Assembly (NCBI GenBank): GCA_965649765.1
Contig: OZ287758.1
Location: 53,630,001-53,694,000, forward strand
From: Bispira polyomma
Taxonomy: Eukaryota
Length of the DNA stretch: 64,000 nucleotides
Reading direction: 5' to 3'
Shown: positions 3,900 to 40,161 of the stretch, piece by piece
Layout: every line of letters begins with the position of its first letter
Position numbering within the stretch: the stretch's first letter is position 1
Translations under genes and position numbers: made by a program
Notes under the pieces: generated by a model
Database searches by the model: none
What the model saw: the letters and a program-made list of their open reading frames with translations, nothing else
What the model was told of the DNA's origin: nothing

Positions 3900-5452
3900 A
3901 CTTTTTACCTCAATAACTATCTTTGGTTGTTTGTGAGGATCTTCTGTTCTAAAGTGTAATATTATACTATGGTTGACTTGATGTATTAAACTATATGGAA
4001 AATTTAAATCCACACAGATTATGATTATTCACTATGACAACTGTGCCCGTTGTACTGGTTGTTGAAAGTCAAAGGTAGTTTCCTAGTACTTTGTTAAAGA
4101 AATATATAGTTAATAACAGCTATGATATGATATCACTATAAAAACCGAACATATTCCAGGCAAGAAAATATTAGAGCTGATGCACTTTCCAGAATTTACT
4201 GTGAAACACCACTTAACAGGGATTTATTACATCAAGTATACAATAATTATGACAGGAATATAGTTCCTATACAACATTTTGACCTCAACTTATCAATATA
4301 AGTTCAGGTTCTACCAACATCATGCAGTATGCAGTCAGATGCATTAGGATTAATAAAGCTTTGATACCAAACACTACTGCTACTTACAAAAATCAGTTCA
4401 AAACTTTTCTTGCTTTCTATCAATTTGTAGGAATTTCAACCATTTCAGTACATTCTGTGCTGGCTTTCATGGAATATTTGATTCAGAAGAAGACTTCCCC
4501 TGCTGTGGTGGCAAATTACATTTATTCTCTGAAATTTATGCAAATAACCTGAATTAGGACTTAGCTCTATTCAACCTTAATTTTGTTGCAATTTTCATCA
4601 GAAGTATTACAATAAACTCAAAATTTCGCCGAAAACCTAAAGGATTATTCAAAATTTCACAGTTAACTTAAATTTCAATAGCATGTGATATCTTACATCA
4701 CCTCATACTATACAGATCTTTAATTCTATTTGCCTACTTTGCTTTCCTCAGGCTGTCCAAAATTGCTCCACATTCAAGGGCTTCTTTTGACAGCACTAGG
4801 CATTTACTTGGACAAGACTTAGTTTTTGGACACCCTTGGGCATATATTATTATAAAGTGGGCTATATATATAATATAACCTATAAAACATGACGGATACT
4901 CACATAATACCCATAGCTTCAAAATGAAGTTATTTGCCCTGTTCTGACACTAGAAAGATTGTCAGTTTATAGACACCGACCTCCTACTTCACCACTTCTT
5001 GTTGCAATTGCTGGTACCCCACATCACACGGTAGTATAAACATGTCAGAATTGTATTAAAGAAAGTTCTAACTCACATTGGTATCCAATATTCATCCCAT
5101 TGTTTCCATACCTTCAGAAGATCTGGAGCCACATTTGCATTCAACCATAATGTTTCTTTTCAGAACATAATGGCCCACGGCCAATGGAGATTATCTTTAG
5201 TTTGGGCCTATTTACAAAAAATATCTCAGACTGCATCAGTGATGCCTAATGCGTTTGCCTCAGCCATTCCCTCATCTTTCAAGTAGAACTTGGAGCTAAA
5301 AATTGACTTAATAAAAATTTAACCATTATTTTACAAATTGTTCATTTGTACATAATACTAACATGTATAAACTAAAAGCTCAAACTGAATCTTTTTAATG
5401 ACTTTTATAAATATCTCTTGGACTGACCTTTAAACCGTACATCTTAAGTGGA
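3900..5452 (+). mobile_element. Degraded Ngaro-lineage YR retroelement (element 0): RNase H C-terminus, YR pseudogene and 3' region
   Basis: RNase H remnants (IIH.DN.AVV near 4025; HIPGK..ADALSR at 4150-4193; ...DLNLSI* ending 4301). YR remnants: FAFLRLSKI (4738-4764) and HTFRRSGATFAF...HGQW (5107-5187). Many stops and frameshifts. The left boundary is approximate. Confidence 0.85.
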
Positions 5453-6739
5453 CTGTGCACAGCAGGCCCCTTTAGAAGACTGCAAGTTCAGTCTACACAT
5501 AACCCCTTTTAATATATTTCACAACCTTAAATTTATTTATCCTACAGCTACATGTACCTAAAAATTGTGTATCAACCTACCTTCCAATCACAGCCCACAC
5601 ACCTGTTGTTTAGGCTTCCCTTTTTCAAACTCTGTATTAAATTTTCATTCAAGCTATAGTTTTCAAAGAGCAAACAAGTGGAACAATATTTACAAGCCAC
5701 CACCTTCCCTTAACGACAGCCATATTGCTAGACTTGTATTCAGCAATTTGAGCTTTAAGGTTACATGTAAGATATATTTTACTTATAATATTGATTAAAC
5801 TGTAGTAGAAGCGATAATGCTCAACAGCTCTAATGAATTATATGTCTATTTGTTTCCAAAGGAAGCTCGGTGACAAAGCAGACGGCGGATTCGAACCTAG
5901 GGCCATGTAGAGGTGCAATCCTGTCACTAATGCCACCCCTGGATTATACAATGCATCTCCAGGGTGGAGGTATGACCGACAGGATCGCACCTCTGCTAAG
6001 TGGCTGGTGCCACAGACCACAGGGTTCCTAATTTTAGCCCGACACTCATGCATAGAATGGTGTCATACAAAGTTAAGATGTAGTCACTTAAAGAGAACTG
6101 TCTTAAGTTACTAAATTTTAAAAAAAAATGAACTCATCCAGATGGGTGAAGTAATAATGTTCGAAATGCTGACACATATTCAGGAAACTATTTACAGATG
6201 TTAATAGAAAATGTACTGGAAAAAGTGGATATTGTGCTTCAATAATGCAAGCGTAGAAAAGAAAAAACAGCATCTATGGGTGGTTTATGGTCAGATTATA
6301 TGTACTTTGTGTGGAAACTATGAATCATTTATGATGGGATTTATACAACCTAAGTATTTTACATGTTACCTCTAGTTCTTGTATAGCTTATAAAGCTCAC
6401 TTAGTATGGCTTAAAGATGAATAAGGGTAAAACGTACCATTGTATTTGCCAGAAAGAAACTAGTACTTGTTAGTTATTGTTGTATGGTAATTTATTTGGG
6501 TAGTCCTTACATTGTGTTATAAATACTATTATATGATCATGGCTAGTCCTATGGTCTCGTTGGTCATTTAGTTCCCTTGGGGGGCTTAAAATTTACTCAA
6601 TAAAATTGTAACCATTATTTTACATTGTTCATCTGAACATGATTTTAATATGTAAAAAATAAAAGCTCAAACTGATTTTTTTTATTGACTTTTATAAATA
6701 TATCTTGGACTGATCTTTAAACCTTACATCTTAAGTGGA
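5289..6739 (+). repeat. Diverged ~165 bp direct repeat (5289-5452 and 6576-6739) of the element-0 3' region
   Basis: Both copies read cttgg..gct(t)aaaa...aaaagctcaaactga...gacttttataaata..tcttggactga..tttaaacc.tacatcttaagtgga. Confidence 0.85.
5865..6030 (-). other. tRNA-like/SINE-like Pol III cassette interrupted by a ~90 bp hairpin
   Basis: On the - strand: A-box-like TGGTCTGTGG and B-box GGTTCGAATCC (5887-5897), with an inverted repeat agaggtgc.atcctgtc...gacaggatcgcacctct (5907-5996) between them. T and acceptor stems do not pair, so this is not a functional tRNA. Confidence 0.5.
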
Positions 6740-7490: not shown

Positions 7491-8431
7491 TTCGTTTTGT
7501 ATTTATCTGTTATTAATTTAATTATTTAATTTGTTTGTCAATAGTGGTTTTTAAAACCTTGTAAAAGCTATAGCTACTGTTTATAACCTTTCATTGCAAT
7601 ACAACCCTATTTTTATGTTTATATGAGTTTTGGTACTAAATGTATGTTATGGCACTCAATGAATGATTATTTTTATTTAAACATTGAATTAGTATGTACG
7701 CATATGTGGCAATGTTTTATAGCTAATATATGGATTTCCCAAAGTAAATTGCTTTGGTTAAAATAGTCAATGCTTGACTTTTTCTAGTAATAAAATATAA
7801 TAAATATATGATTTGCAATTTCTAAATGTGTATTTATTGATGTTGCATATAACAATACTAGATTTGGCTAAATAAGTGAATTGTGGTAGTTTGTATGGTG
7901 AGGCCGGGGACTCAGCAGGGTCAGTGCTGCCAAAATATTGCTAAAACTATTCTTGTTCAGTCTCTAATTGGCTACACTGGGGTCATGACCCCAGCTATGG
8001 GGTCATAACCCCAGCTATTCCCGCTCTTTTCACATAATCCTCATTAAGACGCCATTTTTAAATATAAAAGTTATGCATTAGGAATTTACAGTCAGTTACA
8101 TTTACTGGATATTTTAGTGTAAACGTGGATCATCTTGAGGTGACTGGTGTGCTGGTTCCTGTACTTAAGGAGACTTAAAAAATACTCAATGTTTTGAGTC
8201 ATGCTCGTACTGCTCATAGAGCTTTGTTAGAGGAAAGTGCTTTTATCTTCTTATTTTTGGGTTTTATGATTTTACATATATCTAATTTATACACCTATAC
8301 CTTTATACATCAAATTTTACAACCAGTCAAAATAATATATAGAAAACCTCTAGCGTGCGTGCATGTATCAAGACCGGGTTATTCTATTTTCAGTATAAAC
8401 TATATAAACAATACAGAAGTAATAAATCACT

Positions 8432-9428
8432 ATGCCTAAAACATATAAATGTTCTAAGTGTGCTGGAAACCACAAGAGACCAGTGGGGAAAAAACTGTCA
8501 ATTTGTAGACAATGTTTTAGACAATTCCGGGGATGAAATGAATAATTCTTATAGTGAAAGTGAACACTCGTCAGTGAAATCAGTGAATATGAAAATCTTA
8601 GAAGAATTGAAGGAATTGGGAGGACGTATGTCAAAAATAGAGCAAAAAGTGAACTATGGTGACACATTAGGGGCTTCGGCCTCTCAGTATGATACTACTA
8701 AACCCGCTTCCACATCAAAGTCGACTGCGGAGGACGACCTGGTGAACCCTTCCCTGACAGTATTGAGACGCTCACAAACAGTCCAGTACCAGGTAGATGA
8801 CAGACTAAAGGAGCTGGCCCTGCTAAATAAGTCGGCTAGGTTCAAATCCCAAAGAGGGGGGTCAGAAACTGTTTATGTTAAGAGGCAGGTTCCATGGCCT
8901 CAAAGTTATGTGTTAGGGGGAAGCAACAAAGGTAGGGTCAGTTATGATCAGCTTTCAATGGTACAGTGGATAGCTGGATTTAGCGCTATAATACGCAAAG
9001 AATCTGATGTGGCTATCAAAAATCACATGTTAGATTACCTGAATGATATAATGGAGGACGTCCATGACTTCTCTTGGTCTGCCGCCAAGGGAGCTCATGC
9101 TGTCCTCTTGTGTAGAATGGAAGATGGCAAAGTAACATGGGGCGACACAAACCAAATTGAAAGAATAAGAAGGGCACATGCCCAAAAGGTATCTTATCAA
9201 AATGTGGGGGGTAGTTCAATTAAAAAAATTGGCAGAGACAAAACTACGGCAATCCTGTGTAGATTTTATCAAAAAGGTTCATGCTCTCACAAGTCAGACC
9301 ATGAATCAGGGGGTCAATTGTATTCTCATGTGTGTGTGACATGTGCTGGTTATGGCAAACAGCACACACATCCGGGAAAAGACTGTAAGAAAACTTCAAA
9401 CCAAAACTCAAACTCAAAAAACGATTAG
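8432..9428 (+). pseudogene. Gag-like ORF1 of element 1 (N-terminal CxxCxxxHxxPxGxxC finger, coiled coil, C-terminal Cys/His fingers); +1 frameshift in the A-run at 8489-8494
   Basis: ATG at 8432 gives MPKTYKCSKCAGNHKRPVGK. Removing one A joins it to the 8355-9428 frame (NCQ...), matching element-2 MPVYECSRCLTKHERPVGRNC. Shared motifs WPQ.YVL, DFSW..AK..HAV.L and CRFYQ.G.C...H...H.C..C...H....C. Confidence 0.88.
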
Positions 9429-9449
9429 GGCACTGCCAAGGGGCAGTGC
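9416..9449 (+). promoter_or_regulatory. -1 programmed ribosomal frameshift signal (gag to pol), element 1
   Basis: In-phase A_AAA_AAC (9416-9422), 7-nt spacer, then stem gcactgcc-aagg-ggcagtgc. The -1 frame reads into the 9446 ORF (KRLGHCQGAVHKR). Confidence 0.8.
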
Positions 9450-12314
9450 ACAAAAGATCAGAAAAAATCAAATATAATGAAGTGTTGGAGGTAAAGAAAT
9501 TTAATACTAGAATATGTGTAAATAGTGAAATGTGTGAAAGGGCGAGCATGAATTGGAGACACGACTGGAAGAAAGTAAATCAAATGTCTTATGCACAAGT
9601 GGTACAGGAAGGGAATAAAAAGGAAATCAGTAACAAAAACGAAAAAGTGGAAACAGTCCCCAAAATCAGCTCGTGCTTTCACAAAATGTCAAATAATGTT
9701 CATGTAAAAAGCAAATGGTCCGAAAACACTAACAAATGCATGTTTACAGGAAATGTAAAACAGAAATTGTATAAAAACACTAACCAATGTATGTTTACAG
9801 GGAATGTCAGGAAATGTCACCCACCAACAAGGGTGAATGCTGGCCCAATTGTTCCCAAATGGGTAAAAGGCAACAATAAGGTGGTTATTTCTCCCCCCCC
9901 CCCCCCGTCCCCAGGAAGGTGGTGTCAAAAAACACTCAGTGAACAAATTAATAATGACACTTTAAATGGCACACACAACAGGTTTTCCCCCCTAGAACAA
10001 TTTCAGTGTGAAGAAACCATAGTGATGGGTAACCAAGGGGAAATAGTAAATGATCCCACTGTGGAACCCCATAAAGGTCACAACATGACTAATCCAAAAC
10101 GAACAGATAACTCTAAGAACCAACATAACAGGTTTGTGCCCCAAGAACAATTTCAGTGTAAAGAAACCATAGTGACGGGTAACCAAGGGGAAACATTAGA
10201 TGATCCCACTGCGGAACCCCATAAGGGTCACAACATGACTAATACAAAACAAACGGGTAACTCAAAGAACCAACACAACAGGTTTCCCCCACTAGAACAA
10301 TTTCAATGTGAAGAAACCATAATGATAAGTAACCAAGGGGAAATAGTAAATGATCTCACTGCGGAACCCCATAGGGGTCATAACATGACTAATACAAAAC
10401 AAATGGGTGACTCAAAAAATCAGGTTATTTACACTGCTAAAACCAAAGCTAACCTCATGGGACGAGGTGAACTTAACTTAAAAGGGGATAGCAACAGTAA
10501 TATAAACACTGAGGATAAATATGAGTTTCAATTACAGGTGAAGCCAAAGCACAAGGATCTTATGCGTACAGCAGTAGATAATGCCACCTTCAGGGAATGG
10601 TATGACCAAAGCACTGACAAATTTGGGTTTGTTCCCCTAGGGGATTTAAAAATACCAACACGAGACAGGAAAAATAAAAGTAGTGCATCTATGTGCAAAC
10701 TACATGAGATCATAACAGGTGATAAACAGCATAACTTATTGTGGCTCTCAGATACAAATAGAATCTGAATTAAAACCAGACAAATGGGCAGAATTGCTAG
10801 GTGACTATTGGGATAAACAACTCTCCTTCCTAATACGCTATGGCTTTCCAGTTGACTTTGATAGATCAAATATGCTATCTCATAAAGATACAAATCACAA
10901 TTCTGCAAAATTTTACACTAAAGATGTTGAAGCATATTTAGAAGAAGAAAAGCAGTTCAAAGCTATACTAGGTCCGTTTAAGAAACCTCCAATAAAAAAC
11001 TTACATATATCACCCTTCATGACCAGGGAGAAGCCTGGGGGTGCACATAGAAGAGTCATAATTGATCTCAGCTTTCCTTTAGGTGAATCTGTCAATGCAG
11101 AGGTTCTAAGAAATAGCTACCTAGGCATGCATACCTTACCTACTATAGATGATGTCACAAATAAAGTTAGATGCTTAGGCAAAGGCTCCCTTTTGTACAA
11201 AACTTATGTCAGCCGGGTATTCCGGCACGTCAAAATGGACCCTAAAGACTATGACCTTTTAGCTTTAAAACTCGACGACTATTATGTGGACACGTGCCTG
11301 CCCTTTGGGTTCAGGCACGGAAGTGCAATATTCCAACACCTAAGTGACGCTATCCGCTTCATTATGTCTAAAAAGGGCTTTAAAGTCACAAATTACATTG
11401 ATGATGTCATAGGGTACGGTATGCCCAGTACGGCAGAAAAGTCTTTTAAAATGCTCCATAAACTTTTAGTAGATTTGGGTTTTGCAATTAGCCAGAAAAA
11501 ACTTATTAGCCCAGCTACTAGTGTTACATGTCTGGGTGTACTAATAAACACAGAAAATTTCACTGTCTCAATTCCACCGGAAAAACTCAATGATGTCAAG
11601 AATGTATGCCTAAAGTGGCATAAAAAAACACACTGTTCAAAACGAGATCTCCAATCATTACTAGGCAGCCTATTATATGTATCCAAGTGTGTTAAAGTTT
11701 CACGCTTTTTTCTAAACAGAATGCTTGATGTACTTCGCTCGGCACATGATGACAGGTCCATACAATTAACAACTGAATTCAAACAAGACCTTGCATGGTT
11801 CAGTAAATTCATTTCACAATTCAATGGTGTTGCTTTCTTCGACCATAGAATCCCCAAAATGGGTATAGAGCTAGATGCATGCTTGCAAGGTCTGGGTGGG
11901 CGATGGGGTAATCAGGTGTACACACTTCAACTTCCTCTACGCTTTCAAAATTACTCTATTGTTCACTTGGAGATGATCAATATTGTCGTGGCTATCCGGT
12001 TATGGGGTTGCCATTGGGCAGGAAATAAAATTGTGGTATTGTGCGACAATCAGGCGGTAGTCTCGGTACTTACCAATGGCAAAACTAGGGATCTTACTCT
12101 GGCAGCCATGGCTCGAAACATCCAGATGGAAGCTGCCAGGGCAGATATTGACCTACGAGTAGTACATGTCTTAGGTAAAAATAATGACGTAGCAGACTTG
12201 CTATCTAGATGGGCAATAACCAGCGAACCTTCAAACAGATTAAGGAAATTTATAGTAGAACCAATATGGTTACCTGTAGGGGTGGAAGCCACCCATCTTG
12301 ACTGGAATATTTGA
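9446..12314 (+). pseudogene. Pol of element 1: disordered N-terminus, reverse transcriptase and RNase H; frameshift near 10736 and motif-A Asp lost
   Basis: RVIIDLSFPLGESVN, LPFGFRHGS, YIDD, ELDACLQG, CDNQAVV, ADLLSR. ORFs 9446-10768 and 10719-12314 join at HN/YCGSQI. KTYVSRVFR replaces KVDISRAFR of element 2. Confidence 0.9.
9974..10423 (+). repeat. Three in-frame 150-bp (50 aa) tandem repeats in the pol N-terminal region
   Basis: HNRF.P.EQFQC.ETI...NQGE...D.T.EPH.GHNMTN units start at 9974, 10124 and 10274. Confidence 0.95.
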
Positions 12315-12327
12315 TTGTATTCTTTAG

Positions 12328-13324
12328 GTACAAATTCCTGGTTGGCAAAGGCAGCTGGCAGAGCAGCTGGAAGGGCTCATACAGCCTTCAGACCCTCCAC
12401 TCAAAAATCTTATAACTTTATGTTCAGAAACTTCCTAGCTTACTGTGTGTTTGCAAATATTGCAATACAACCAATCACGGCTACTATTCTCTTAGCTTTC
12501 CTCGCGGTTTTGGCTGAAAACAACACCTCTCACTCTGGTATAGCAAATTACTTGACTGTAATCAAGGCAAAGTTGGCCCTATATGGCCTTGACACCTCAG
12601 CCTTCATGGATCCTAGAATAAAGTATTTCCAAAAGGCAATTGCATTGCATAAACCCTTTAAAGTACAACTTAAATCCATCATTGACATTCCTCTGCTGAT
12701 CCAAATCATCAAAAAATGTGACTTTATGTACATGGGTCAGGTCTACAAGGCCATCTACCTCTTTGCATTTTTCTCATTCTTGAGAATATCAAATTTGGTT
12801 CCCCACTCTAACTCTACTTACTCACCCCTACAACACCTAGCCAGAGGTGACATCATATTTGCACCTCCTGGTCTTCAAGTACTGATTAAATGGAGTAAGA
12901 CATTACAGAGCAGGGATACAGTTAGACTTTTAAAAATACCCTCACTTGGGGGTTCCCCAATGTGTCCAGTGGCTGTCATTTCCAATATGCTTGCCATCAC
13001 TCCTGGTAAAAAAACTCGCCTCTGTTTCAATGTAAAAGCTTGGCCACGTGGCTCCCTATGACTGACACTAAAGTCAGGCGTAACTTCGCTATCATTCTTA
13101 AAGATCTTGGTTTGCAAAATTCTAACATCACTTTTCATTCTTTTAGACGTTCTGGAGCCACGTCGGCCTTTAACAAGAATGTTTCCATTCAAAATATTCA
13201 AAGTCATGGCACTTGGACCTCAGAATGCATCTGGCGCTACATTACACAAGACCATGACTCCTCTGACCAGGTGGCGTTGGCCTTTCAAAATTCAGTACAT
13301 CAACCTTCCTCTTCTACCTACTGG
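12328..13324 (+). pseudogene. Tyrosine recombinase of element 1; 1-nt deletion in the A-run near 13010; ancestral stop probably at 13322-13324
   Basis: FFSFLRISNL, HSFRRSGAT and HGTWTSECIWRY give the R-H-R-W-Y set. One extra A restores KKNSPLFQCKSLATWLP, homologous to GKDLPLFQFKQNAIWLP. ACC TAC TGG aligns with ACC TAC TAA of element 2. Confidence 0.9.
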
Positions 13325-13395
13325 TTGGGGTTTGGTGTTTTTAGTTCAGACAATAAACTTAAATGGCATTTATTACACTATATATTAGTCAATAC

Positions 13396-13658
13396 TTAAG
13401 GCCACCTTAACTTTACGTAACTTAAACTGTAATGTAATCTTAAATGAAGTAGTAAGATTCTTAACTATACTAACTTAAAGGATAATGTAATCTTAAATGA
13501 AGTTACTGTAATGTAATCTTAAATGAAGTAATAAGATTAGTAACTATACGTAACTTAAATTTAATGTAATCTTTAATGAAGTTAAGTCAACATCTTAAAC
13601 TCAGGCATGGACTTAAACTCATGCTCTTAACTTCAACATTAATTTAAGGTGGTCTTAA
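13396..13658 (+). other. Stem-enclosed CTTAA-rich repeat/hairpin domain in the element-1 3' UTR
   Basis: Arms ttaaggccaccttaa (13396-13410) and ttaaggtggtcttaa (13644-13658). The interior has ~4 copies of taatgtaatcttaaatgaagt. Confidence 0.8.
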
Positions 13659-15844
13659 TCTTTTAGTTAATGATATTACAATTTGTACATAATCTGTAGA
13701 TCTAACGTTAGTGAATTAAACTAATATGCCCAAAGAATGGTGTTTTATTTATATATTAATTCATAAATCCACACTTTGGGGAGGCACTGATAGTGGCTAT
13801 ATAAGATATAAGCAAAATATTCCATTTTCATGACCTATATTTTAGTAAACTTTGTTTTCTATTATTTTTAATATCATTCTGAAGCTGATGCCATGGGAAT
13901 CATTTATGTTGCATTTTGTTCTTTACCCGTCACCAAAAAAAATGGCTTACCAACAATGACAACAGTAAACTAAACAATAAAACCAGAATAAAAATAGTTG
14001 CCTTGCTGTATTTTGATTGAGAAACCTTTTTTTAGGTGTAATGAAGTTTGGGTTTAATGTTGCTGTCTTTTTTTATAGCACAATGGGTCGTTTTTGGTGG
14101 AAAATCCGAGCAGGGTTGTTGGTTAAGGGTTTTTGAAGCATTTGCTTTTCATTACCTTAGCTGTAATATATTTCCCTTAGTTTCATGTCCAAAACAGAAA
14201 ATAGATGTATGCCCTGATCTATATGTTGTAAGTTTGCTGAATAGATAAGGCTATGTGCTGCTTTTAGAGTCATTGGAGGAAGACTCCAGGGATGTGTTTG
14301 GCCTGGTTCTTAGACATAAACACCCCTGGGAAGATGTGATCAGTCACATTATACCAGTAAGTAATAAGGTCAATTCAGGAGTCTGTTTCACAGAAATAAA
14401 ATATGACATATAAAAAGTTTATGCATTTTAATTCTTCTTCTGGAAATAAACTTTTAGCATGATTTTAAACAGTTTTATTTCTCATTAATGCATACAGTTA
14501 CAAACATCACAATAAACAATACACACCACACTAATAATACAATTATAATTTATAGAAGAATAATTTGATTAGTTGTAACTTTTTATTCCATTTCTATATC
14601 ATCAGTCACTATATGCAACAAAATAGCAATAAAAGTAATGTGACGTCAGGCAAAATTACACATTACAATATACACTAAAAATACTATAATCTGTACTATT
14701 ACTGTTACAGGAATGCCAACTACACTTGAATGAATAAATTTGGCATATTTAAAAAAAAATAAATTTTGTCTTACACTTGAAAACGGTTTCCCAGTTGATC
14801 CAAGTTTTAAACATATTTTTTTCCAAACTGTTCATTTTGTTAGAAGTAACTAATCTCTATAGACCTGATTTAACCTAACTTTTAGAGCAATGTAATTCAA
14901 TATCCCACAAGACAAATCAAATCTATATACTTTTTGGTGACAATAATAAGAGTATTATTGGGGATCCTGTGGATATATGCTAAATGATGTATACCCTCAT
15001 GATGTATGCTATTTAAATCAATTGCTAAACGACTATTATTTAAGTTACAAATGTGGATACACATTCCTTAAATTTTTAGATTGTGATAGACTGGGTGCAA
15101 CAAACCAATTATAATGCCATCTAATCATGTAATTACATTACTATGTGCTAAGTGTGAGCACACACTTTCATTTTTAAAGTGTGATTAACTGCTTGCAATA
15201 AAACAAATAAGCATTCCATTTGTTATGTTATAACATGATTGAGTGAGACATGTGAGCAGGTACCCTCCCCCAGTATTTCAACTTGATTGTATTGAACTTG
15301 TTGCAATAAAACAAATCAGCATGCCATTTATCATTTATTCACATTAACATCACTGAGTACTGGGAATCATACATATTCAATACATATTCAAGAATATTCT
15401 CATTTGCTACCACATTCTTCAAAAGCTGCACACAAAATCAAAAGATACTATTTATGATTTAAGCAAAAAATACAGTTATTCAATGCAACTGCGTAGGGAT
15501 TAAATGTTGAAAAACAATTAATATTTATGACAAGTCAAATCAGTTAAGGTTTGCAAAGCTGAATCCAAATATGGATTTAGTTTTTCTGTCCACTTTTCAA
15601 TCGATACAAGGAGACCACAGATTTAAGCTTGGTATTAGTTTGAGCGAAGGTATACTTTACGAATATGGTAAACAAACATGTTTTTACCAGTAGTGTGTTC
15701 AGAATTGTGTATATTTTTGGCAATTTGCTATATTTAGCAGCTGAAGACCTATCGGAAAGTTTTGACACCACACGTTAGCAACAGCAACAGTACACATCTG
15801 ATAGAATTACAAGTCAAATGCACATAACCATTTTTAAAGCTGTT

Positions 15845-19448: not shown

Positions 19449-19451
19449 TAA

Positions 19452-22930: not shown

Positions 22931-25359
22931 GCACTGCTGCTTATTGATATACAGGGGCCATTTTGAATACCTCCTTATTGGGGGCACCGTTATACAATGC
23001 AGACAACAAGCAAATTGAAGATTATCATGTGTCCCTGCCATGAATATGTGAAATAATTAAGATGGCCACCAACTTTGTGGGCATGTTGGATTGTTTTTAA
23101 TCAAATTTTCAAAAATTTAAGCCAATTTTTTTCTACTGTGACAGAAATAGTGTTCAATGTTGAAATTTTCAAAAATATTGGCGGCTGCAAGTTGTCAGTG
23201 TGATTCCCGTGCTAACCTTTGTAGAATGAATTGTGATATATTGTACACATTTTAACATTGAATTAATTAGTGCGCATATGTGTCAATGTTTTGATATACT
23301 ATATGGATTTTGCCAATTCTATTATTTTTGTTAAAGCCATTAGTGCTGAAATTACCAGAGTCCTGTTTTTATAGACTACATAACAAGTAATTCAAAGGAT
23401 CATATTATAAATGAAATCATACAATAAAATCTAGCATAATATTGCCTAAGTGATAACACAGCACATTTTATTTAGTTTGAAAATGTATGACTTTGGTTCA
23501 AATATTCATTGCTTGACTATTGTTAGTTACCAAAATATAATAAATATACAATTTCGAAATTTGTCGAAGTATTGTATTTAAAAATGTTTCATATGTTTCA
23601 ACAGATAAAATTGTTAGATCCGTTTGAATCATGGTAGTTATAGTGGCCATATTAGATTTAATCCAATCATTCCATATTTCACTAGGTATATTTTGGTAAA
23701 CTTTCTTTTCTGTTATTCTAGATGTAATTCTGAAGCCAATACCAATTGGAATCATTTCTGTTGCAATCTGTGGAAACATTAAAACGTTTTTCACCCATCA
23801 ACAAGAAAAACTGTACCAGAACATAAAATTTCAATTGTGGGACATTTGTCTCTGGTGGAAAACAAGTAGTAAGCAGCAAACATCACTGACAAAAATAATA
23901 ATTACATTGCCAACTTTACCAACCATGAAAACTGTAAGTTAATGTAGTATAATTTAAATAATAAGTTGCTTAGCTGTATTATCTATTTTTGTGAATTTAC
24001 AAACCTTTTGGTTGGTTTCATTTAGTTTGGATTAAACATTGCTTTGAGCCTGTTTTGTGTCATATCACGATGGACAGTTATGTCGTGGAAGAAAATCCGA
24101 ACTGGTAGTTCATAAGCTCTACAAATCCACGGCATTCTGCAAGTGTACTGCCAAATTTCCAACATCTCTGTGTGTATGTGTGTGTATGAAATTGTGTGTA
24201 TGTGTTTCCTCTCAAACACTCCATCCTTTGTACGAGTGACAAATTCATTTTACAGAACAGTACTAGTTTTGCACACAACACCTCCAAATTGTGGCATGAC
24301 CTACCTCAGAATATACAAAGGGTTTCCTTACTGTATTCATTCAGAGAGAAACTCGAACACTATTTGATTTAGAGGGCTCTTGTTTTGACAGGTATATATT
24401 GGTTGATATTGGTATATATTAGGCTACAACCGTAGGACCAGATATTATGCCTTTACTTAGCTTGGATTGATGTGATGAATATGTTCTTAGTTACATGTCT
24501 ACAAAAGAAGCATAGAATAGATAGGTATTGCCAATATTTCATATTATGAAGTTGTTATCATCACACCCATCAGAGTCTTCAGAGTGAAAGGCTGTGGATG
24601 TGATCTATATATATACGCAACCAGTAAAATTAAAGCGGCTAAATTCTACCAGCAACTAAAAAATCAATTTTAGAGAATATTTGACAGAATTAGTTTTAAC
24701 ATAAATGAAACATAAAAAAAGTATATGATGCATCTTGTTTCAATGTTGTTTTCGTCACCCTTCCTTGGTGGATGTTTTTTGTGACAACCCATTGCTTGCC
24801 TCTGGACCTTCTTTTTTTTTGAATATCATGACATTCTCACCAATTTGGCTCTCTATATTTGTACAAATATGTAGATTGAAGTAGAAGTAGAAGCAAAATA
24901 ATTTTTTCTTCTCATATCTTTGAAATTTTACAGGAGAAGATCAAATGGATACTTTAATGTGTTAATATCATTAGAATACAATGATAATATAGACTAGCTG
25001 GATATTTTTGTGATCACTTTTGAGGGCTATATGTGTGTGCCCATTTATAGTTTTATATTTCTACCTGGGTGATATTAGCAGAACTTTGTGGTGTATATGT
25101 TTCTCTTACATGTTTTCTGTATGTGTTTGGACAAGACTTAAGCCATGTATGTGCTAAAGGTTAATAATTAAAGGTAATAAGGAGGAACTGATAAATATGC
25201 CAGCCTGTTATGTCAGTTGGGATTTTGTGATTTTCTGTGACAGCTGCATGGTAGCACAGAAGGAATTTTGTTTACAAGAACCAGACTCAAGTGACTAGAT
25301 AAGTCAGTGACAAAAGGTTCAGCTACCTGTAAATGATGCTTTAAACATCACTAGCAATT

Positions 25360-32370: not shown

Positions 32371-33265
32371 GATGTTTTACCAAGATAGACACTTGGTGTT
32401 TCAAGAGAGCAAAATAAAAAAATATAGATTTTTCACTCTAGTTAACTATTCCTGATGATGAAGCACATCCAAAAACTATAAACTACTGACAAATGTATCT
32501 ATATAATTCTACACCTATAAGAGAAGTGAACGTTCCTGCCAAGTTAGAAATGTAGAATAACTCTGGGAGAACTCTTTATATCTCTTACTTGCATCCTGGT
32601 CTAAAATTGCATGCATAAGTTACATTGTTAATAATAAGCCAATTGTACACATAATTATGAACAATTTATGGGCTGGAAAATGGAGTTGGTGAGTGTCTCA
32701 TTAATTATTGCAGAGTAAAAGGAACCTCTTTCACAATCTTCTTCACACCGTGGCCGCAAAATTTCCTTTTCTCTTTTCATTTTGTAATTTTCCAAGTTCT
32801 ACCAAGATCACAGGATACAACATAATAGGCTGAGATTAGAGCAGACACAAATTATTTAATAATTAGAGCATTAGGACTTATACTTTTGGACAGCAGGCAT
32901 CAGAATACATAATTTACTCTGTGTGAGAACTGCCCAGGATTAACTATAGTAATTAGATTATTTTTACAATAAGAGAGGGACTGTTGGGGACTGATACTTT
33001 TGGAGACTATGGGGCCATTCAAAACAGATAGCAGACCTCATTTACTCTGTGTTAGAAGTAGCAAGAATATTATTACAGTGAAGGTGGAGTCAACAGGTCC
33101 ATTTTAAAAATAAGTGCTCAGTTCCTCGGAGTAGTGCCTGAGGAAACTCAGTTAACCGAACAAGTCATAGAAAGACAATACTGCGATTAAATATATTTAT
33201 TTCATATTTACAGCTACTATTACTAAGATATTTATGTACAGTTCTTTGACATGATATGCACTTTG

Positions 33266-33499
33266 TGTGAGCATAAGGTCCCCTTAAGTCAACTGAGTTT
33301 AGGACTTTAGGTTAAACCAGAATGAGTTTAAGTCACCCTAACTAAGAAAGAAGTTGACTTTAGAAATTTAGATTTAAGTTGAAACTTAGATATGACTTTG
33401 AAGATTAACAAATTAAAGTTTGACTTAGGTTTTAAGTGGAACTTTAATTACATGAGTACAATATGTACTTTAATAATACAGGGGGACCTTATGCCCACA
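33266..33499 (-). other. Stem-enclosed multi-hairpin domain in the element-2 3' UTR
   Basis: 18-bp arms (sense tgtgggcataaggtcccc / ggggaccttatgctcaca, one G-U pair). Interior hairpins such as aattaaagtt..actta-aaacc-taagt..aactttaatt. Confidence 0.82.
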
Positions 33500-33588
33500 G
33501 TTAATTCATTTAGTTTACAGGTAATTAATATGCTACTTGCACTGTTAAACTGACTAGATCTTACAGTGATGCCACCAAACCCCAAAAT

Positions 33589-34574
33589 TTAGTAGGTATT
33601 TTGTAGAATAGTTTTAAAGGAATCGGCAACTTGAGTACCAGCATTGGCAGAATCCGAAATGTAACGCCAGACGCAATCGGACGTCCAGGTGCCGTGCCTT
33701 TGGATGTCCTGAATGGTGACATTATTGTTAAAGGCAAAGGTGGCACCTGAACGCCTGAAAGCGTGAAAGGTCAAGCCAGAGTACTGCGGGCCCAGCATTA
33801 GTAAGACATTCTTAAGATGCCTCCGAACCCTAGTATCAGTAAGGGGCAACCAAATGGCATTCTGCTTAAATTGAAACAAGGGCAGATCTTTCCCTTTAGG
33901 GGAAATAGCCAAACAGTTTTTTAAAGCTTGAACCGGACATAAGATGGAATTGGTTAAAGCTGGTATGGTGAGCAAGCGAACGGCATTATTGTTTTGAAGG
34001 GTTTTAGACCATTTAATAATGAGGACAGCGTACCCTGGCTTGAAAAGAACATCAGCCCTTGCAAGCTGCTTAAGAGGAGAGTAAGCAGCAACCGAATGAG
34101 CACAGAGGTTAGACAGCCTCAGAAAGGAAAAGAAACTGGTAAGATAGACTGCTTTAAAAATTCGACCCATGTAAGTACTGTCGCACTTTATAATAAGAGA
34201 CCTCAACAACTGGACGTCGAAAATTGACTTAAGTTTTACTTGCAATGGTCTATGCATCGCCAAAGCTTTATTATAATAGGTAATTCTTTTATCAGAAAAA
34301 ACATCTACGGATATATGGAAGAGGACACACTTAGCCTTAATGGCAGAAAGATGATTAAGAACTTGACTAGCCGACACACCATTAAACGTTAAAAACTCTA
34401 AATAAGCTAAGAGATATAACACAGTCACCTTTTGAGGAGGCCATGACATAAAGGCTCCAAACGCCACGAACAGCCTGAACATTCTGTTGTAGGCTCTGTT
34501 AGTGGCAGGGGTGAAGGCAAGTACAAGTCTGTCAGAAGCTTTCTGCATCAAGGAGATGGCCACAGGTTGTATAT
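33589..34574 (-). CDS. Tyrosine recombinase (lambda-integrase family) of element 2; probable second exon starting at 34574
   Basis: 324 aa open frame with FFSFLRLSNL, HAFRRSGAT and HGTWTSDCVWRY. It is preceded by a tgttttctag splice-acceptor-like site. Confidence 0.92.
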
Positions 34575-34597
34575 CTAGAAAACATGACTAACACGTG

Positions 34598-36997
34598 CTA
34601 TATAAGTGAGTTAACTTTTAATAAACTGCGGCAAGCAGGCAGCCACTGGACAGGCCCAGCTAACCTAAATAACGACAAATGGTCGGCTTCAGTTTCCGTC
34701 CATCTTGACAGCAAATCTGCAATTTTATTTTCTTTACCCAAAATATGTATGACAACAATATCAATATTAAACTTGCTAGCTAACATGTATATGTTCCTAG
34801 AATACGTGGCTAATTCGGGATCTCTGGTGCGCCCTGTCCGTAAGACACTTACAACTGCCTGATTATCACATCTGACCAATATTCTACGACCTTTCCATTT
34901 ATGAACCCACAATTTTAGAGCTACCAAGATGTTAAGCATCTCCAAAGAAGCAATATTGACCTCAGTCATTTCTGGAGGAATGTTAATTTGGTACACTTGT
35001 TTCTCAAAAATACCCCCCATTCCAGTAAGGCAGGCATCTAATTCAATCTCACCAGTTATGGGCTTAGGCATGAAAAAAGAGACTCCATTGAACTGTTCTG
35101 CAAAAGTAGTAAACCAATTTAAGTCACGCCTGAATTCAGGGGTGATGGCGATATACTTTCTGGTGTAATTATCTCGTAACAGCTCCAGCATCCTATTCAA
35201 AAAGACCCGAGCATACTTTACACATTTAGAGATATATAATAACAAGCCAAGTAAAGACTGGAGCTCTCTCTTAGTGTAGAATTTTTTGGATTTCCATTCG
35301 AGACACTTATCTTTAATTTGACTTAATTTCTCACCCGGGATGGAAGTAGTACCTCGAATGGTATCCACTACTATGCCCAGGCAGACGACCTGCGTGCTGG
35401 GAGGAACCAATTTTTTCTGACTTACTGTCAACCCCAACTCTTGTAGCAGTTCTTGCAATCTCAGGAAAGTTTTTTGAATTTTGCTGGGAACAGAAATAGC
35501 CAAGAAATCGTCGATGTAGTTGTGGACATTATGATTTTCAGAGTGCATTATGAATCGCACGGCATCCGAAATTCTCTGAAAAATCGTGCTACCATTACGA
35601 TATCCGAACAGCAGAGATCTGTCCACATAATAGGACTTCCACTTTAGACCTAGGAGGTCAACGTCGCCAGGGTCAATGGGTACGTGGCGGAACGCCCTAC
35701 TTATATCGACCTTGAATATCTCACATCCTCTCCCCAATTTTACCACCTCACTAGTGAGATTATCAATGGACGGATAAGACAGTAGAAATTCAACGCCCAA
35801 GTAAGAGGAAGGAGAAGCTCCCGCATTAACCGACCCCCCTTGAGGCCAACTCAAGTCTACAATTACTCTCCGGTTAATTGAGTTCGGTTTGTGTCTCGTC
35901 ATAAGGGGAGAACAGTGCAGGCCCGGAAGAGGAGGTTTGTCAAATGGCCCTAACATGGCGCCTAACTCACATTCTTCTTTCATATAAGCCTCTACATGCT
36001 GTGGATATTCCTCAGCCGACTTATGGTTACTCTCACTGGATTCCAATTTTACTGAATGATCGACGTCCAGGGGAAATCCATATTTTATGAGGAGAGGCAA
36101 TTGCCAATCCCAGTAATTTTTGAGGTATTTTTTCCAACTCTCGGGTCTTAATTGAGAGGGAACGGGGATTTGCAACCCTTCATAATTATGCCTGCCGTCA
36201 GCCCGAATTAAGTCATGCATTTGCAAAATGGAAAGTTCGGGCCCTCCCTCACCCTGATCTGCCATCTCACAGCCCAGAGCAGAGAGAGGAGTGAATCCAT
36301 ATGCATGTTGGGTTTGAGCTTGCCATTTTCTGTAAGTAGGATTTGAGGCAGCCTTAGCTAACATGCCTTTCTTATTTACTTTCTGTTTCAAGGCACAAGA
36401 GTACTTATCGGGACATTCGAGACTTTCCGGGCTATCTTCGGAAGCAGTTTTACTCCTGCCCTCGCCTCGGTCAACGGGCTTGTCACTAGGGCCAGAAAGG
36501 AATCGAACGGGCTCGTCCACATTTTCACCGTCATCGACCGGCAGCGACACTAAAGCTGTATACCTGTTAGCAAGAGGGAGGACAGCCACACCCCCATTGA
36601 CCCGCCTCTCTTCGCCCCCATTCAACCTCGAGCACTTGACCTCCTTTGTTATCACCTTGCCCTGTTTCGCACCCCGGCCTGGCTTCACAATGGAAGTCCA
36701 TTGGCCCACAGAGGTACCAAGGGGCCTCAACAATATGTCACTTTTGCCACGTAATATCTCTACCTTACTCTTGTCAACCCTAGCCTGTTTTACGGGCACA
36801 TCATTAACACTTCTATTTACACACCCATACTTTTGAACTGGGCCATTCTTTTGCAACGCCTGGCTATAACTCAAGCCTGGCCTGGTGCCCTTCACATATT
36901 TACACGTTTTTCGCCACACAGACCTCTCAAATAATTGTACACTCTTAAATTCAGTATTATAAACAAACCTACATTTGTGCTTTGCACTTTTAGCCAC
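34598..36997 (-). CDS. Pol (reverse transcriptase plus RNase H) of element 2, reached by -1 frameshift from gag
   Basis: 799 aa open frame: RVIVDLSWPQGGSVN, KVDISRAFRHV, LLFG (usually LPFG), YIDD, ELDACLTG, CDNQAVV, ADLLSR. No ATG near the start of the frame. Confidence 0.93.
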   Translation of the reverse strand: MAKSAKHKCRFVYNTEFKSVQLFERSVWRKTCKYVKGTRPGLSYSQALQKNGPVQKYGCVNRSVNDVPVKQARVDKSKVEILRGKSDILLRPLGTSVGQWTSIVKPGRGAKQGKVITKEVKCSRLNGGEERRVNGGVAVLPLANRYTALVSLPVDDGENVDEPVRFLSGPSDKPVDRGEGRSKTASEDSPESLECPDKYSCALKQKVNKKGMLAKAASNPTYRKWQAQTQHAYGFTPLSALGCEMADQGEGGPELSILQMHDLIRADGRHNYEGLQIPVPSQLRPESWKKYLKNYWDWQLPLLIKYGFPLDVDHSVKLESSESNHKSAEEYPQHVEAYMKEECELGAMLGPFDKPPLPGLHCSPLMTRHKPNSINRRVIVDLSWPQGGSVNAGASPSSYLGVEFLLSYPSIDNLTSEVVKLGRGCEIFKVDISRAFRHVPIDPGDVDLLGLKWKSYYVDRSLLFGYRNGSTIFQRISDAVRFIMHSENHNVHNYIDDFLAISVPSKIQKTFLRLQELLQELGLTVSQKKLVPPSTQVVCLGIVVDTIRGTTSIPGEKLSQIKDKCLEWKSKKFYTKRELQSLLGLLLYISKCVKYARVFLNRMLELLRDNYTRKYIAITPEFRRDLNWFTTFAEQFNGVSFFMPKPITGEIELDACLTGMGGIFEKQVYQINIPPEMTEVNIASLEMLNILVALKLWVHKWKGRRILVRCDNQAVVSVLRTGRTRDPELATYSRNIYMLASKFNIDIVVIHILGKENKIADLLSRWTETEADHLSLFRLAGPVQWLPACRSLLKVNSLI

Positions 36998-37027
36998 TGC
37001 ATTAACGCAGTGGCCCCTCAGTTTTTT
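36993..37027 (-). promoter_or_regulatory. -1 programmed ribosomal frameshift signal, element 2
   Basis: GCA_AAA_AAC_TGA with a 6-nt spacer, then stem gccactgc-gttaat-gcagtggc. The -1 frame reads KLRGHCVNAVAKS into pol. Confidence 0.82.
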
Positions 37028-38085
37028 GCCCCTTTCTTATGACATTCACTAGTCTGGTGGCTACCCTCACATGTCTCGCAATGATGTTTATATAACTGAC
37101 CTCCAGTATTGTGAGAGCTGGGAAATCGACAATTTCCTTCCTGATAAAAGCGACAAGACATTGCACCCTTACGACGTACAGACTTACTGCTACTCGAGTT
37201 ACTTGGCCGTCCATTCGCCCCAGAGGAATTTCTACTGTTCGACACATGGCGCTGAGCATGGGCTCTTCGGATTCGATCCATCTTATCTACCTCTAGCCAC
37301 CCCAACTTATCCATCTCCATACTTGTCAATACGACTGCATGGCAGGCCTTAGCTGACTCCCAAGAAAAATCCTGGGCATCCTCCATAAGACCCCCCATGT
37401 AATCCAGCATGGCATTCTTCACTTCGATCGACTTCTCCTCGTGGGCAATCCGAGCGAAACCACACACCCATTGCAACACGGTTAACTCATCGTAGCTAGG
37501 CCGAGACTTAGAACTACCCGTGAGCACATAGTTTTGAGGCCAAGCGGTGACCTTTTTTACCAACACCTCATTCGCCCCACTACGCTGGGACTTCAGTTTA
37601 CCTTGCGAGGTGGTCTCATTCAACGTCTTGAGATCTTTCAATCTCTGCTCCACTTGGAGCTGTATTAGGGCATTCTGGTTTAAAAAATCTATGCCAGGAA
37701 TTATACTGTCGGACGTAGCGATAGATGGGCTCTTACCTACGCCAGCAGAGCAACTAGCAGGCCTGTCAACACTAGAACTAATCAAACTACTACTTGCCTG
37801 AACGGGGACCTGATGACTGGGCTGACTACTGGTGAGGTTCGTCGCCAATGCTGCCTCATTCCTCTGAACCCGCTGGTCCATTTTTACCATTAACTCGTTC
37901 ATCGAGTGCAGTTGGAGTAGTATCGCGTTCGTAACTGCATCGCCAGACTCACCGTTTGCGGGTTCAGTGTCAGAGGCAGCATCGATCTCCTCCCCAGAGG
38001 CAGAGTCAACGGTTGCAATAACGCAATTTCGCCCTACAGGACGCTCATGTTTGGTTAAACATCGACTACACTCATAGACAGGCAT
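37018..38085 (-). CDS. Gag-like ORF1 of element 2
   Basis: 355 aa with an N-terminal CSRCLTKHERPVGRNC finger, coiled coils and a C-terminal CRFYQEGNC...H...HHCETC...H....C cluster; homologous to the element-1 ORF1. Confidence 0.9.
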   Translation of the reverse strand: MPVYECSRCLTKHERPVGRNCVIATVDSASGEEIDAASDTEPANGESGDAVTNAILLQLHSMNELMVKMDQRVQRNEAALATNLTSSQPSHQVPVQASSSLISSSVDRPASCSAGVGKSPSIATSDSIIPGIDFLNQNALIQLQVEQRLKDLKTLNETTSQGKLKSQRSGANEVLVKKVTAWPQNYVLTGSSKSRPSYDELTVLQWVCGFARIAHEEKSIEVKNAMLDYMGGLMEDAQDFSWESAKACHAVVLTSMEMDKLGWLEVDKMDRIRRAHAQRHVSNSRNSSGANGRPSNSSSSKSVRRKGAMSCRFYQEGNCRFPSSHNTGGQLYKHHCETCEGSHQTSECHKKGAKN

Positions 38086-38143
38086 AACTAAAAGGTGTTT
38101 CCACTAAAATACTGTAAAATATAAAAACATATACACCACCAAC

Positions 38144-38231
38144 AAAATGGCACCCAAACAATTTTAAACTAGTTGTTGCTCTGCTGACGAACGATAAAGG
38201 CGGGAGATTTTGAAAAGGAGAGCCTTATATA
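38144..38231 (-). promoter_or_regulatory. Putative internal Pol II promoter of element 2 (TATATAA; GCCATTTT YY1-like motif)
   Basis: TATATAA at 38231-38225 and GCCATTTT at 38151-38144. Element 1 has CGCCATTTT (8050) and TATAAAA (8063). Both share a tattttagtg.aaac block upstream of gag. Confidence 0.5.
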
Positions 38232-38879
38232 GTCGTACACCATCCCATAATAGTAGACCAGGCTGGTACCCCAGAACTGAGGCCACGAACGCTGAGGGCA
38301 TTCGCTTACACATCTCTATTAGGGGTACTGGTGTTACATTCAGACAAAAAGGATGGTAATAATCCCTGCCTTCGATATGTGTTTAAACACTTTACCTGTA
38401 GAATGTTGAGAAAGTGGACAGACTGTACTACATCTGTTATACCAAAGCAGTAATTGACTCTATCGCTTACCATTTCAGAGATATTCGCCATTTGATGAAA
38501 ATTGAGGAGGGCTGCTAGAAAATCTCTCTCCCATTCGCCACTGTGGTGAAACAGCTAATTTTGGTAAATATTCAAGAAATATTATTATGCTGTATAAACC
38601 ATACATTTATCCATTTAATTTATATATACGCATATGTGGCTGTGTTTTACACCTAAGATATCGATTTGTGTTATTATTATTACAGTCATTAGTGCTGAAA
38701 TTACTGCCAAATTAATTTAAATGATCATATTATAGAAATGAAATCGGATAATGAAATTTGGCAAAATAATGCTGAAGTGTTATGTCAATGATAAAACAAA
38801 ACAATCAAGTATGTTTGAAAATGCACGGCTTTGGTTAAAATATTCAATTCTAGAGTTTTTGAGGCAAGAGATATAGAAT

Positions 38880-39030: not shown

Positions 39031-40161
39031 CAACATAGCTGATGCAACAATAGGTATAAGACAAAATTTCACATCACAATATACATTTTCAAAAACTAAA
39101 CATTTTTTATGTTTTTTAAAATTTATCTTTTAAGCTGTCCATTTTGTAAAAAGTAATTCATCTGTGTAAAACTGATTTAACCTTAACTGTTAGAACAAAT
39201 TACAACCATTGTCCCATTCCATTATGACAAAAAAATATAAACATCTGGTAAATGATACCCTGATTATGTATGTTGTTCTAATAAATTGTTGATATACAAG
39301 GATATGAGAACAACAGTGAGTGCACATCCCTTCAACTTTTAGATTATGATAAACTGGTTTTCAATCAAATAAATTAGAATGTCATATGTTATTTAACCAC
39401 ATATTTGTTCAGCACATATCTTTAGTTTTACAGTGTGATTAACTAGTTCTAAGAAAAGAAACATGCATGTCACTTGTAATATGTTTACATCACTGAGTAA
39501 TGGGAGTAATCCATATTCCAGGATATGCTGTGTTTGCTAGCACATTTTTCAAACGTTCCACACAAATGCATTGCACATTGTTCATGGTATGATTCAAGTA
39601 GCAAAACAACAGTAGTTTTCACATTCATAATTTGATGTTGATTACATCTTTACCATGTCCCATTATTCAATTTTTAATACTATCACAAAATAAAAACAAT
39701 AATGCCAGCTTTCTCTTTTGCGATATTTATTTGCTTATTTATTTCAATACTTTAAACAGCACAAAATAAATTGGTTTCCTTTTCTATGTAGTCAGTTATT
39801 TTGTAATTGACTCATTGTAACAATGCTAACTCTTGAACAACTAGAAACATGGCAATCAGAGGATAGAAAGTTTTCCTTTTCATTGTGTTGCCAGACCTCT
39901 AAATGACATTTATTCAATGTTACTTTGAACTAAAGCAGTGTTGAGAGATCAAACATGCACTAAATTCTTCTTAACAAAATTAAGCTTCATTCACATTTGT
40001 TTGCATCGCAGACTACAAAATTTGGCCAGTATGTAAGTCCACTGAATATGATCTGTAACATTCAATTAGGTGTACAAAAGAAACCGTTTGTTACAATAAA
40101 TACTTTGAACTATCTGACAGCAACAAAAACTTCAGCAAATGAATATACCACCACATCACTT

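What the first reader, a model, noticed from the sequence alone, without database searches (positions are those of the whole stretch)
33111..38308. Intact RT + tyrosine-recombinase element with no long terminal repeats, whose mRNA would lack both ends
Seen: the paralogous empty site (~22900-23040) bounds the element. The ~220 bp 5' and ~480 bp 3' non-coding parts share no long direct or inverted repeat, only short motifs (TAAGYG ends, CTCAGTT). A TATA box lies ~80 bp inside the 5' end, and AATAAA (33201-33196) with a GU-rich tract lies ~85 bp inside the 3' end. Element 1 shows the same layout (TATAAAA 8063, ATTAAA 13715). Known: DIRS1 needs ITRs plus an ICR, and PAT/Ngaro need split direct repeats, to rebuild their termini during reverse transcription. 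The RT and YR motifs here are Ngaro-like, with no methyltransferase or hydrolase ORF. Inference: this could be a distinct class that is first excised by its YR into a circle (predicted junction ...gagcacTTAAgcgaatg..., with a CTTAAG core). The circle could then be transcribed across the junction into a terminally redundant RNA, as in pararetroviruses, or the RT could copy only a structured sub-region, as in retrons.
Basis: partly seen in the sequence, partly recalled or inferred. Interest (0 to 1): 0.88.

Follow-up and report, generated by a model that had tools for sequence, protein, structure and literature searches.

The report
Repeat-less Ngaro retrotransposon with RNA cage
This is an intact jumping gene of the Ngaro type that lacks the end repeats its relatives use to copy themselves, most likely because it is a shortened daughter copy, but it carries a conserved folded-RNA domain that could point to a different way of copying.

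Summary
The element is real: 5.2 kb, minus strand, with three unbroken ORFs (Gag, RT/RNase H, tyrosine recombinase), bounded by a paralogous empty site, with no long terminal repeats. A second element (7892-13789, about 50% identical in protein) has the same layout. A third relative in the window (4140-6739, sister subfamily) and a more distant locus (L001) do carry Ngaro-type split repeats. Best reading (0.5): an A-ORFs-B monomer of a canonical Ngaro family, probably unable to retrotranspose alone. A truly repeat-less lineage is not excluded (about 0.3). Other copies from the host genome, which I could not search, would decide it.

The parts
33111..38310 (-). Element 2 (the finding): intact Gag / RT-RNase H / YR retroelement, about 5200 bp, ends uncertain by about 4 bp (3' end possibly 33119)
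38086..38310 (-). 5' non-coding part (A-equivalent) with TATA motif at 38231-38225; two small hairpins upstream of it, not more stable than shuffles (z -0.9)
37018..38085 (-). ORF1, Gag-like, 355 aa, Cys/His motifs at both ends; alignable to the Gag of the hydrolase-bearing loci L002/L003
37596..37601 (-). Candidate phase-1 splice donor in gag, at the position homologous to the donor used in L001
36992..37027 (-). Predicted -1 ribosomal frameshift signal: A AAA AAC heptamer in the right phase plus an 8-9 bp hairpin; same arrangement in element 1
34598..37036 (-). ORF2, RT/RNase H, ends 34 aa after the last RNase H motif (no methyltransferase)
34574..34586 (-). Phase-1 splice acceptor 23 nt after the RT stop, opening into the YR frame
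33589..34587 (-). ORF3, tyrosine recombinase with full catalytic set
33573..33585 (-). G-rich 13-mer just after the YR stop, identical in element 1
33266..33499 (-). Structured 3' domain ('cage'): 18-bp closing stem around about 198 nt of hairpins; holds a 13-mer (33334-33322) identical in element 1 and two ATTAAA hexamers
33196..33201 (-). AATAAA, predicted poly(A) signal
7892..13789 (+). Element 1: diverged relative with frameshifted ORFs, same layout, no long terminal repeats, cage at 13396-13658
4140..6739 (+). Element 3: old, 5'-truncated relative (RNase H tail, broken YR to 5286) followed by direct repeats 5292-5452 and 6581-6739 (161 bp, 86%), read as B1 and B2 of a Ngaro B1-A2-B2 end
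22940..23060 (+). Paralogous empty site for element 2
23551..23700 (+). Paralogous empty site for element 1

Best explanation
Element 2 is an A-ORFs-B monomer of a Ngaro-type retrotransposon family whose master copies are A1-ORFs-B1-A2-B2. It arose either when a template jump during reverse transcription made a monomer circle with one B|A junction that the YR then integrated, or when B1 and B2 (or the two B|A junctions) recombined and removed A2-B2 (both steps inferred). Its proteins can still be made: Gag from ORF1, Gag-Pol by a -1 frameshift, and a Gag-YR fusion by splicing (signals shown in sequence; splicing shown physically only in the relative L001). Its RNA cannot template the promoter and the junction, so it is a probable dead end for retrotransposition, though it may supply proteins in trans or be excised by YR. 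The 3' cage is a conserved cis-acting RNA structure of this subfamily; my preferred guess is that it hides poly(A) signals at B1 so that masters read on into A2-B2, as a 15-bp stem does on paper in L001, or that it binds RT/Gag (inferred).
For: Element 3 in the same window has 161-bp direct repeats starting 5 nt after the YR stop, and its YR falls in a sister subfamily inside one well-supported clade with elements 1 and 2 (SH-aLRT 99). The outgroup locus L001 has YR-repeat-spacer-repeat-gag order, and a stretch 3' of L002's ORFs recurs 5' of L003's gag (78% over 82 nt), so split repeats are present on both sides of the lineage. Published precedent: Xenopus Ngaro copies often lose all or part of the repeats, and the DIRS-54_XT consensus lacks them while 2 of the copies examined have them (PMC9210276); 7 of 15 T. 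cruzi VIPER copies have them while 12 of 15 have three ORFs (PMC6681497); solo AB repeats, the reciprocal product, occur in Cafeteria (PMC8547959). TATA and poly(A) positions leave about 110 + 64 nt untemplated, the stretch that A2/B1 supply in Ngaro. In L001 the AATAAA sits in a 15-bp stem whose 5' arm lies outside the repeat, so only the YR-proximal copy folds (-27.8 against -10.0 kcal/mol).
Against: 2 of 2 full-length elements in the window, only about 50% identical in protein, lack the repeats and both have clean ends. Both have the cage, while the repeat-bearing element 3 and L001-L003 give no match to a cage model, which would fit a lineage that replaced the repeats. The elements 1+2 group is neither shown nor rejected as a clade apart from element 3's subfamily (support 20). 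Element 3 is old, lacks A1, and its repeats could be a local duplication. L001-L003 are short contigs in bacterial MAG records and may be misassembled. No solo AB remnant of elements 1 or 2 lies in the window. The precedent copies may be truncations rather than clean monomers. Poly(A) and TGTA motifs in the cage are only modestly above expectation.
Confidence: 0.5

Rival explanations
1. A truly repeat-less Ngaro lineage that retrotransposes from longer RNAs: head-to-tail dimers or read-in/read-through transcripts carry both ends, RT copies them, and YR cuts out the monomer circle between the two ends and integrates it. The cage suppresses termination or recruits RT.
For: 2 of 2 elements lack repeats; cage and two 13-mers are conserved; L001 shows that relatives form tandem arrangements; the family is large, with many multi-member RT clusters (835 proteins at E<=1e-20 among 8000 scored).
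Against: No dimer in the window; relatives on both sides have split repeats; needs leaky termination and a lucky upstream promoter.
Confidence: 0.15
2. One reading: YR excises the monomer as a circle, which is transcribed across the junction into a terminally redundant RNA and reverse transcribed, as in pararetroviruses.
For: Intact YR; CTCAG motifs cluster at both ends of element 2 (5 of the window's 76 sites lie within about 45 nt of its ends); small sense-strand hairpins upstream of the TATA motif.
Against: The only 3' AATAAA lies upstream of the predicted start on the circle and element 2 has no AATAAA/ATTAAA in its 5' part, nor a TATAWAW in its 3' part; the hairpins are not significant (z -0.9); the CTCAG clustering is not repeated at element 1's 3' end.
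Confidence: 0.1
3. The element moves as DNA (Crypton-like excision and integration by YR), and RT copies only the cage into a short retron-like DNA used for priming, regulation or defence.
For: Cage architecture, an inverted-repeat stem enclosing hairpins, resembles a retron ncRNA in outline (recalled); stem significant and covarying; animal Cryptons move without terminal repeats (PMC3212892).
Against: Gag, frameshift and RNase H are all retained as in replicating retrotransposons; no Rfam match; the cage interior alone is only mildly structured (z -2.2 and -2.05); cut-and-paste alone does not explain the many multi-member families.
Confidence: 0.07
4. The cage is a miniature internal complementary region that templates the ends as in DIRS1.
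For: A 10-nt cage motif (33300-33291) is complementary to 33155-33146 near the 3' end.
Against: Too short against the 88-bp ICR of DIRS-1 (PMC7192593); not conserved in element 1; no cage-to-end pair was flagged in 110 pairwise tests with 200 shuffles each.
Confidence: 0.04
5. Only about the cage: it is a miniature inverted-repeat transposon inserted in the 3' UTR, not a part of the retroelement's function.
For: Size and terminal inverted repeat fit a MITE; element 1's stem begins and ends with TTAA.
Against: Same position in two diverged elements, homologous and covarying stems, shared internal 13-mer; no third copy in the window; no target duplication at element 2's cage.
Confidence: 0.05

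Closest known systems
Ngaro retrotransposons (order DIRS)
   Same: gag, RT/RNase H, YR in that order; no methyltransferase; Gag, RT and YR align with the GDSL-hydrolase-bearing locus L002 (RT 35%); no obvious target duplication.
   Different: No A1..B1-A2-B2 repeats in elements 1 and 2; no hydrolase ORF; conserved 3' cage and -1 frameshift (L001-L003 have an in-frame stop between gag and RT).
DIRS1-like elements
   Same: RT/RNase H plus YR; mRNA thought to lack both ends (shown for DIRS-1, PMC7192593 passages).
   Different: No long inverted repeats, no ICR, no methyltransferase, YR not overlapping most of RT.
PAT-like and VIPER/TATE elements
   Same: YR retroelements; VIPER copies with three ORFs but no detected repeats are reported.
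   Different: PAT elements belong to the methyltransferase-bearing DIRS group; both normally have split direct repeats.
Cryptons
   Same: YR mobility without long terminal repeats.
   Different: Cryptons lack Gag and RT.
Retrons and pararetroviruses (analogies only)
   Same: A stem-closed structured RNA next to an RT gene; possible circular DNA form.
   Different: RT is Ngaro-type with RNase H; no Rfam match; the poly(A) site is not downstream of the start site as terminal redundancy needs (recalled property of pararetroviruses).

Membership tests
Ngaro | gag, RT/RNase H and YR ORFs | tested here: met
Ngaro | No methyltransferase after RNase H | tested here: met
   ORF2 ends 34 aa after the AD.LSR motif, as in 111 of the 115 homologues (of 120 examined) that have the motif; Pfam finds none
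Ngaro | Split direct repeats A1..B1-A2-B2 | tested here: not met
   Absent in elements 1 and 2; B1/B2 present in element 3
Ngaro | RT/YR group with named Ngaro references in a tree | not testable with these tools
   All listed hits were unnamed; nearest structurally typed relatives are L001-L003. Motif resemblance to Ngaro RT is recalled
Ngaro | Hydrolase ORF after YR (some lineages only) | tested here: not met
   No ORF of 100 aa or more after the YR; present in L002
DIRS1-like | Inverted terminal repeats plus ICR | tested here: not met
DIRS1-like / PAT | Methyltransferase domain | tested here: not met
Retron | msr-msd RNA of a known family | tested here: not met
   0 Rfam matches at gathering threshold in 64 kb
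Retron | RT makes a short branched RNA-DNA from the structured RNA | not testable with these tools
   needs biochemistry
Pararetrovirus-like replication | Poly(A) signal downstream of the start site on the circle, giving terminal redundancy | tested here: not met
   By motif positions only; real RNA ends unknown
Crypton | YR only, no RT | tested here: not met

The most novel reading that the evidence does not exclude
Elements 1 and 2 belong to a large invertebrate lineage of YR retrotransposons that has dropped split direct repeats altogether and uses a conserved 230-260 nt structured RNA domain instead, to prime reverse transcription or to let the RNA run across the ends, with YR excising and re-integrating a monomer circle. 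This would be a third replication strategy among YR retroelements and would supply a concrete candidate for the still unknown primer or RT-binding signal.
Probability: 0.3. Interest if true: 0.85.

Novelty: new variant of a known kind. Interest (0 to 1): 0.5.

Why it matters
How YR retrotransposons start reverse transcription is unknown even for DIRS-1 (PMC7192593 passages), and the Ngaro cycle is a model, not an experiment. If the monomer reading is right, the missing repeats are ordinary, but the element still offers three testable cis signals that my searches did not find described for Ngaro: a conserved -1 frameshift, a splice that fuses Gag to the recombinase, and a covarying 3' RNA domain. 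If the family is truly repeat-less, it would break the rule that YR retroelements need ITR/ICR or split repeats and would need a new mechanism.

Tried and rejected
Hidden or degenerate split repeats between 5', pre-cage, cage and post-cage segments: none flagged within either element among 110 pairwise tests. Shared termini between elements: a TGTA-start alignment of elements 1 and 2 scored 21 (47 and 78 of 5000 random window positions as good; 212 and 154 of 5000 shuffles), and the TAAG-start alignment scored up to 24, so end similarity does not choose between junctions; similarity of element 3's junction to element 2's 5' end was not significant (681 of 5000). A sliding 240-nt folding scan did not rank the cages at the top of the window (element 2's cage 23rd of 1594 windows, element 1's not in the top 30); their significance rests on the closing stem. 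RNAalifold on a MAFFT alignment of the two cages misregistered the closing stem and gave only an inner stem. tblastn of the RT against plasmids and phages: no match. The single genome-contig scan gave 6 loci of 35 pattern matches; 3 (L004-L006) are unrelated LTR-type elements and were dropped. The first YR tree left element 3 on a very long branch; it was rebuilt with 18 of the 111 element-3 hits and 15 of the 120 element-2 hits. Atlas look-ups gave only loose taxa (Mollusca, Cnidaria). The profile search gave family size only (802 representatives at E<=1e-30). Accessions of the homologues could not be obtained, so host range and flanking DNA of close relatives stayed unchecked, as did viral and metagenome collections. 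The amphioxus file on an unusual Ngaro repeat layout was not seen (one search returned another file) and the Xenopus copy tables were not available; both may bear on how common clean monomers are. A script value for the L001 donor phase used a wrong coordinate and was corrected.
Full report
What is there. The window is AT-rich animal-type DNA with tandem rhodopsin-family GPCR genes. On the minus strand at about 33111-38310 lies an element with three unbroken ORFs: a 355-aa Gag-like protein with Cys/His motifs, an 812-aa RT/RNase H, and a 332-aa tyrosine recombinase. Catalytic residues of RT, RNase H and YR are intact. ORF2 stops 34 aa after its last RNase H motif, as in 111 of 115 scorable homologues, so there is no methyltransferase, and no hydrolase ORF follows. 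The family is large: 415 YR relatives among 2061 candidates and 835 RT relatives at E<=1e-20 among 8000 scored, many as clusters of tens of members, all listed ones unnamed.

Ends. Element 1 has one best breakpoint, 7891|13790, in 5 of 5 schemes; the alternative that would give it TAAGYG ends is far worse. With those ends both elements can start with TGTA, but this similarity is weak and the TAAG-based alignment scores as well. The circle junction is therefore not known to the base. No long repeat links the two non-coding ends of either element.

Gene expression signals. At the gag/RT overlap both elements have an A AAA AAC heptamer in the correct phase followed by an 8-9 bp hairpin with different sequences; a -1 slip gives an open 1162-aa Gag-Pol in element 2. 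In 5 of 5 elements examined (1, 2, 3, L001, L002) a phase-1 YAG acceptor lies 7-23 nt after the RT stop. L001 contains a DNA copy in which a phase-1 gag donor (3240) is joined exactly to that acceptor, which is what a reverse-transcribed spliced RNA leaves. Element 2 has a phase-1 donor at the homologous gag position (37601), giving an open 489-aa Gag-YR fusion; three other phase-1 donors exist among the six tested, and element 1's donor is not recognisable there. Frameshifting and splicing in element 2 itself are inferred.

The 3' cage. Only four loci in 64 kb have a stem of 14 bp or more with a 120-320 nt loop; six shuffled single strands gave 0-1 at 14 bp and 0 at 15 bp. Registered on a shared TAAGG, the 11 pairs formed in both include three changed on both sides and one on one side (two sequences only, registered by hand). 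The whole domains fold at z -7.0 and -4.8, but the interiors alone only at z -2.2 and -2.05, and a sliding scan does not rank them highest. The two 3' regions share two exact 13-mers, which 10 of 5000 random pairs of window segments do. A sequence model of the cage finds no convincing match in element 3 or L001-L003; its only other hit is a weak 71-nt one at 1946-2016. Rfam has no match.

Relatives with repeats. A third, old element at about 4140-6739 has an RNase H tail, a broken YR and then 161-bp direct repeats (86%) that start 5 nt after the YR stop and both end in a CTTAAG-containing stretch: the B1..B2 end of a Ngaro element whose 5' part is lost. Its YR belongs to a distinct subfamily (SH-aLRT 99) that groups with elements 1 and 2 against L001/L002 (99); whether it is sister to or nested among them is unresolved (support 20). 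L001, a eukaryote-type contig in a MAG record with RT 36% identical, shows YR, a 460-bp repeat, a 127-bp spacer, the repeat again and then gag, which I read as B1-A2-spacer-B2 followed by a tandem copy. There the AATAAA is enclosed by a 15-bp stem whose 5' arm lies outside the repeat, so only the YR-proximal copy can hide it. L002 carries the GDSL hydrolase typical of some Ngaro lineages.

Mechanism. With a start near 38200 and cleavage near 33175, about 110 nt and 64 nt stay untemplated. On a monomer circle the poly(A) signal would precede the promoter, the opposite of what terminal redundancy needs, and element 2 has no poly(A) hexamer in its 5' part or TATA motif in its 3' part. In Ngaro that gap is covered by the internal B1-A2 junction (recalled from Goodwin and Poulter's model, not read; structure confirmed). 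The simplest account is that elements 1 and 2 are A-ORFs-B monomers of such families (0.5). Published families do contain repeat-less copies and solo AB units. Against this, 2 of 2 diverged elements are monomers with clean ends, and the cage occurs only in them, so a lineage that replaced the repeats stays open (about 0.3 over three variants: read-through or dimer masters 0.15, circle transcription 0.1, DNA mobility with a retron-like product 0.07).

Literature. Seven searches listed no paper describing a repeat-less class of YR retrotransposon, nor the cage, frameshift or Gag-YR splice; most subscription papers, including the original Ngaro papers and Repbase reports, are outside the library. 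Seen: PMC9210276 passages and Discussion (supplements unavailable); PMC8547959 passages and one section; passages only of PMC2632668, PMC4157794, PMC3783388, PMC6681497, PMC7192593, 10.64898/2026.02.25.703748 (69), PMC13465315, PMC3212892.

Verdict. The observation largely stands, the new-class claim is unproven, and the specific junction and circle-transcription model are weakly supported. Filed as a Ngaro-clade variant that fails the split-repeat test, with new cis features worth testing. Interest 0.5; 0.85 if a genome-wide copy census shows no masters.

Noticed in passing
window 4140-6739 (+): Third, degraded YR retroelement with B1/B2 repeats; its spacer holds an 11-nt stretch (6073-6083) complementary to the end of the B repeat.
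   Followed up: partly
window about 5850-6060: GC-richer, strongly folding insert (z about -6.7) inside element 3's spacer with a reversed tRNA B-box-like motif (motif recalled); probably a SINE.
   Followed up: no
window 45940-46273 (+): Short broken fragment of a fourth RT of this family.
   Followed up: no
window 16670-17788 and 31261-32376 (-): Two intronless rhodopsin-family GPCR genes, 85% identical, in a tandemly repeated block that supplies the empty sites.
   Followed up: no
window 9973-10422: Three 150-bp tandem repeats inside the variable N-terminal part of element 1's RT ORF.
   Followed up: no
window 8063-8095: Element 1's TATA motif is followed about 30 nt later by TCAGTT, an initiator-like motif (consensus recalled); both elements also have a pyrimidine-rich acceptor shortly before the gag ATG (about 8392 and 38114).
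   Followed up: no
window 42580-42983: MITE-like element with 29-bp terminal inverted repeats and an inner 42-bp hairpin.
   Followed up: no
window 6915-7490: 26-bp perfect inverted repeats 524 nt apart, probably a MITE.
   Followed up: no
window 18886-19977: Tandem duplication of about 500 bp (77%) with a palindrome at 19424-19476.
   Followed up: no
window 48568-48720: A 17-bp stem with 119-nt loop, the only comparable non-coding long stem outside the two cages.
   Followed up: no
window 57200-58420, 58465-59751, 40143-40871: 20-bp minisatellite array next to an ORF resembling a LINE ORF1, and a LINE RT-tail-like ORF (resemblances recalled).
   Followed up: no
L001 1-1509, 1036-1106: Spliced gag-YR DNA copy and a poly(A)-enclosing hairpin that can form only at the YR-proximal repeat; gag ends in TGA CTA G in frame with RT, a read-through context (recalled).
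   Followed up: partly
L001-L006: Eukaryotic retrotransposon contigs inside bacterial MAG records, probably host contamination.
   Followed up: no
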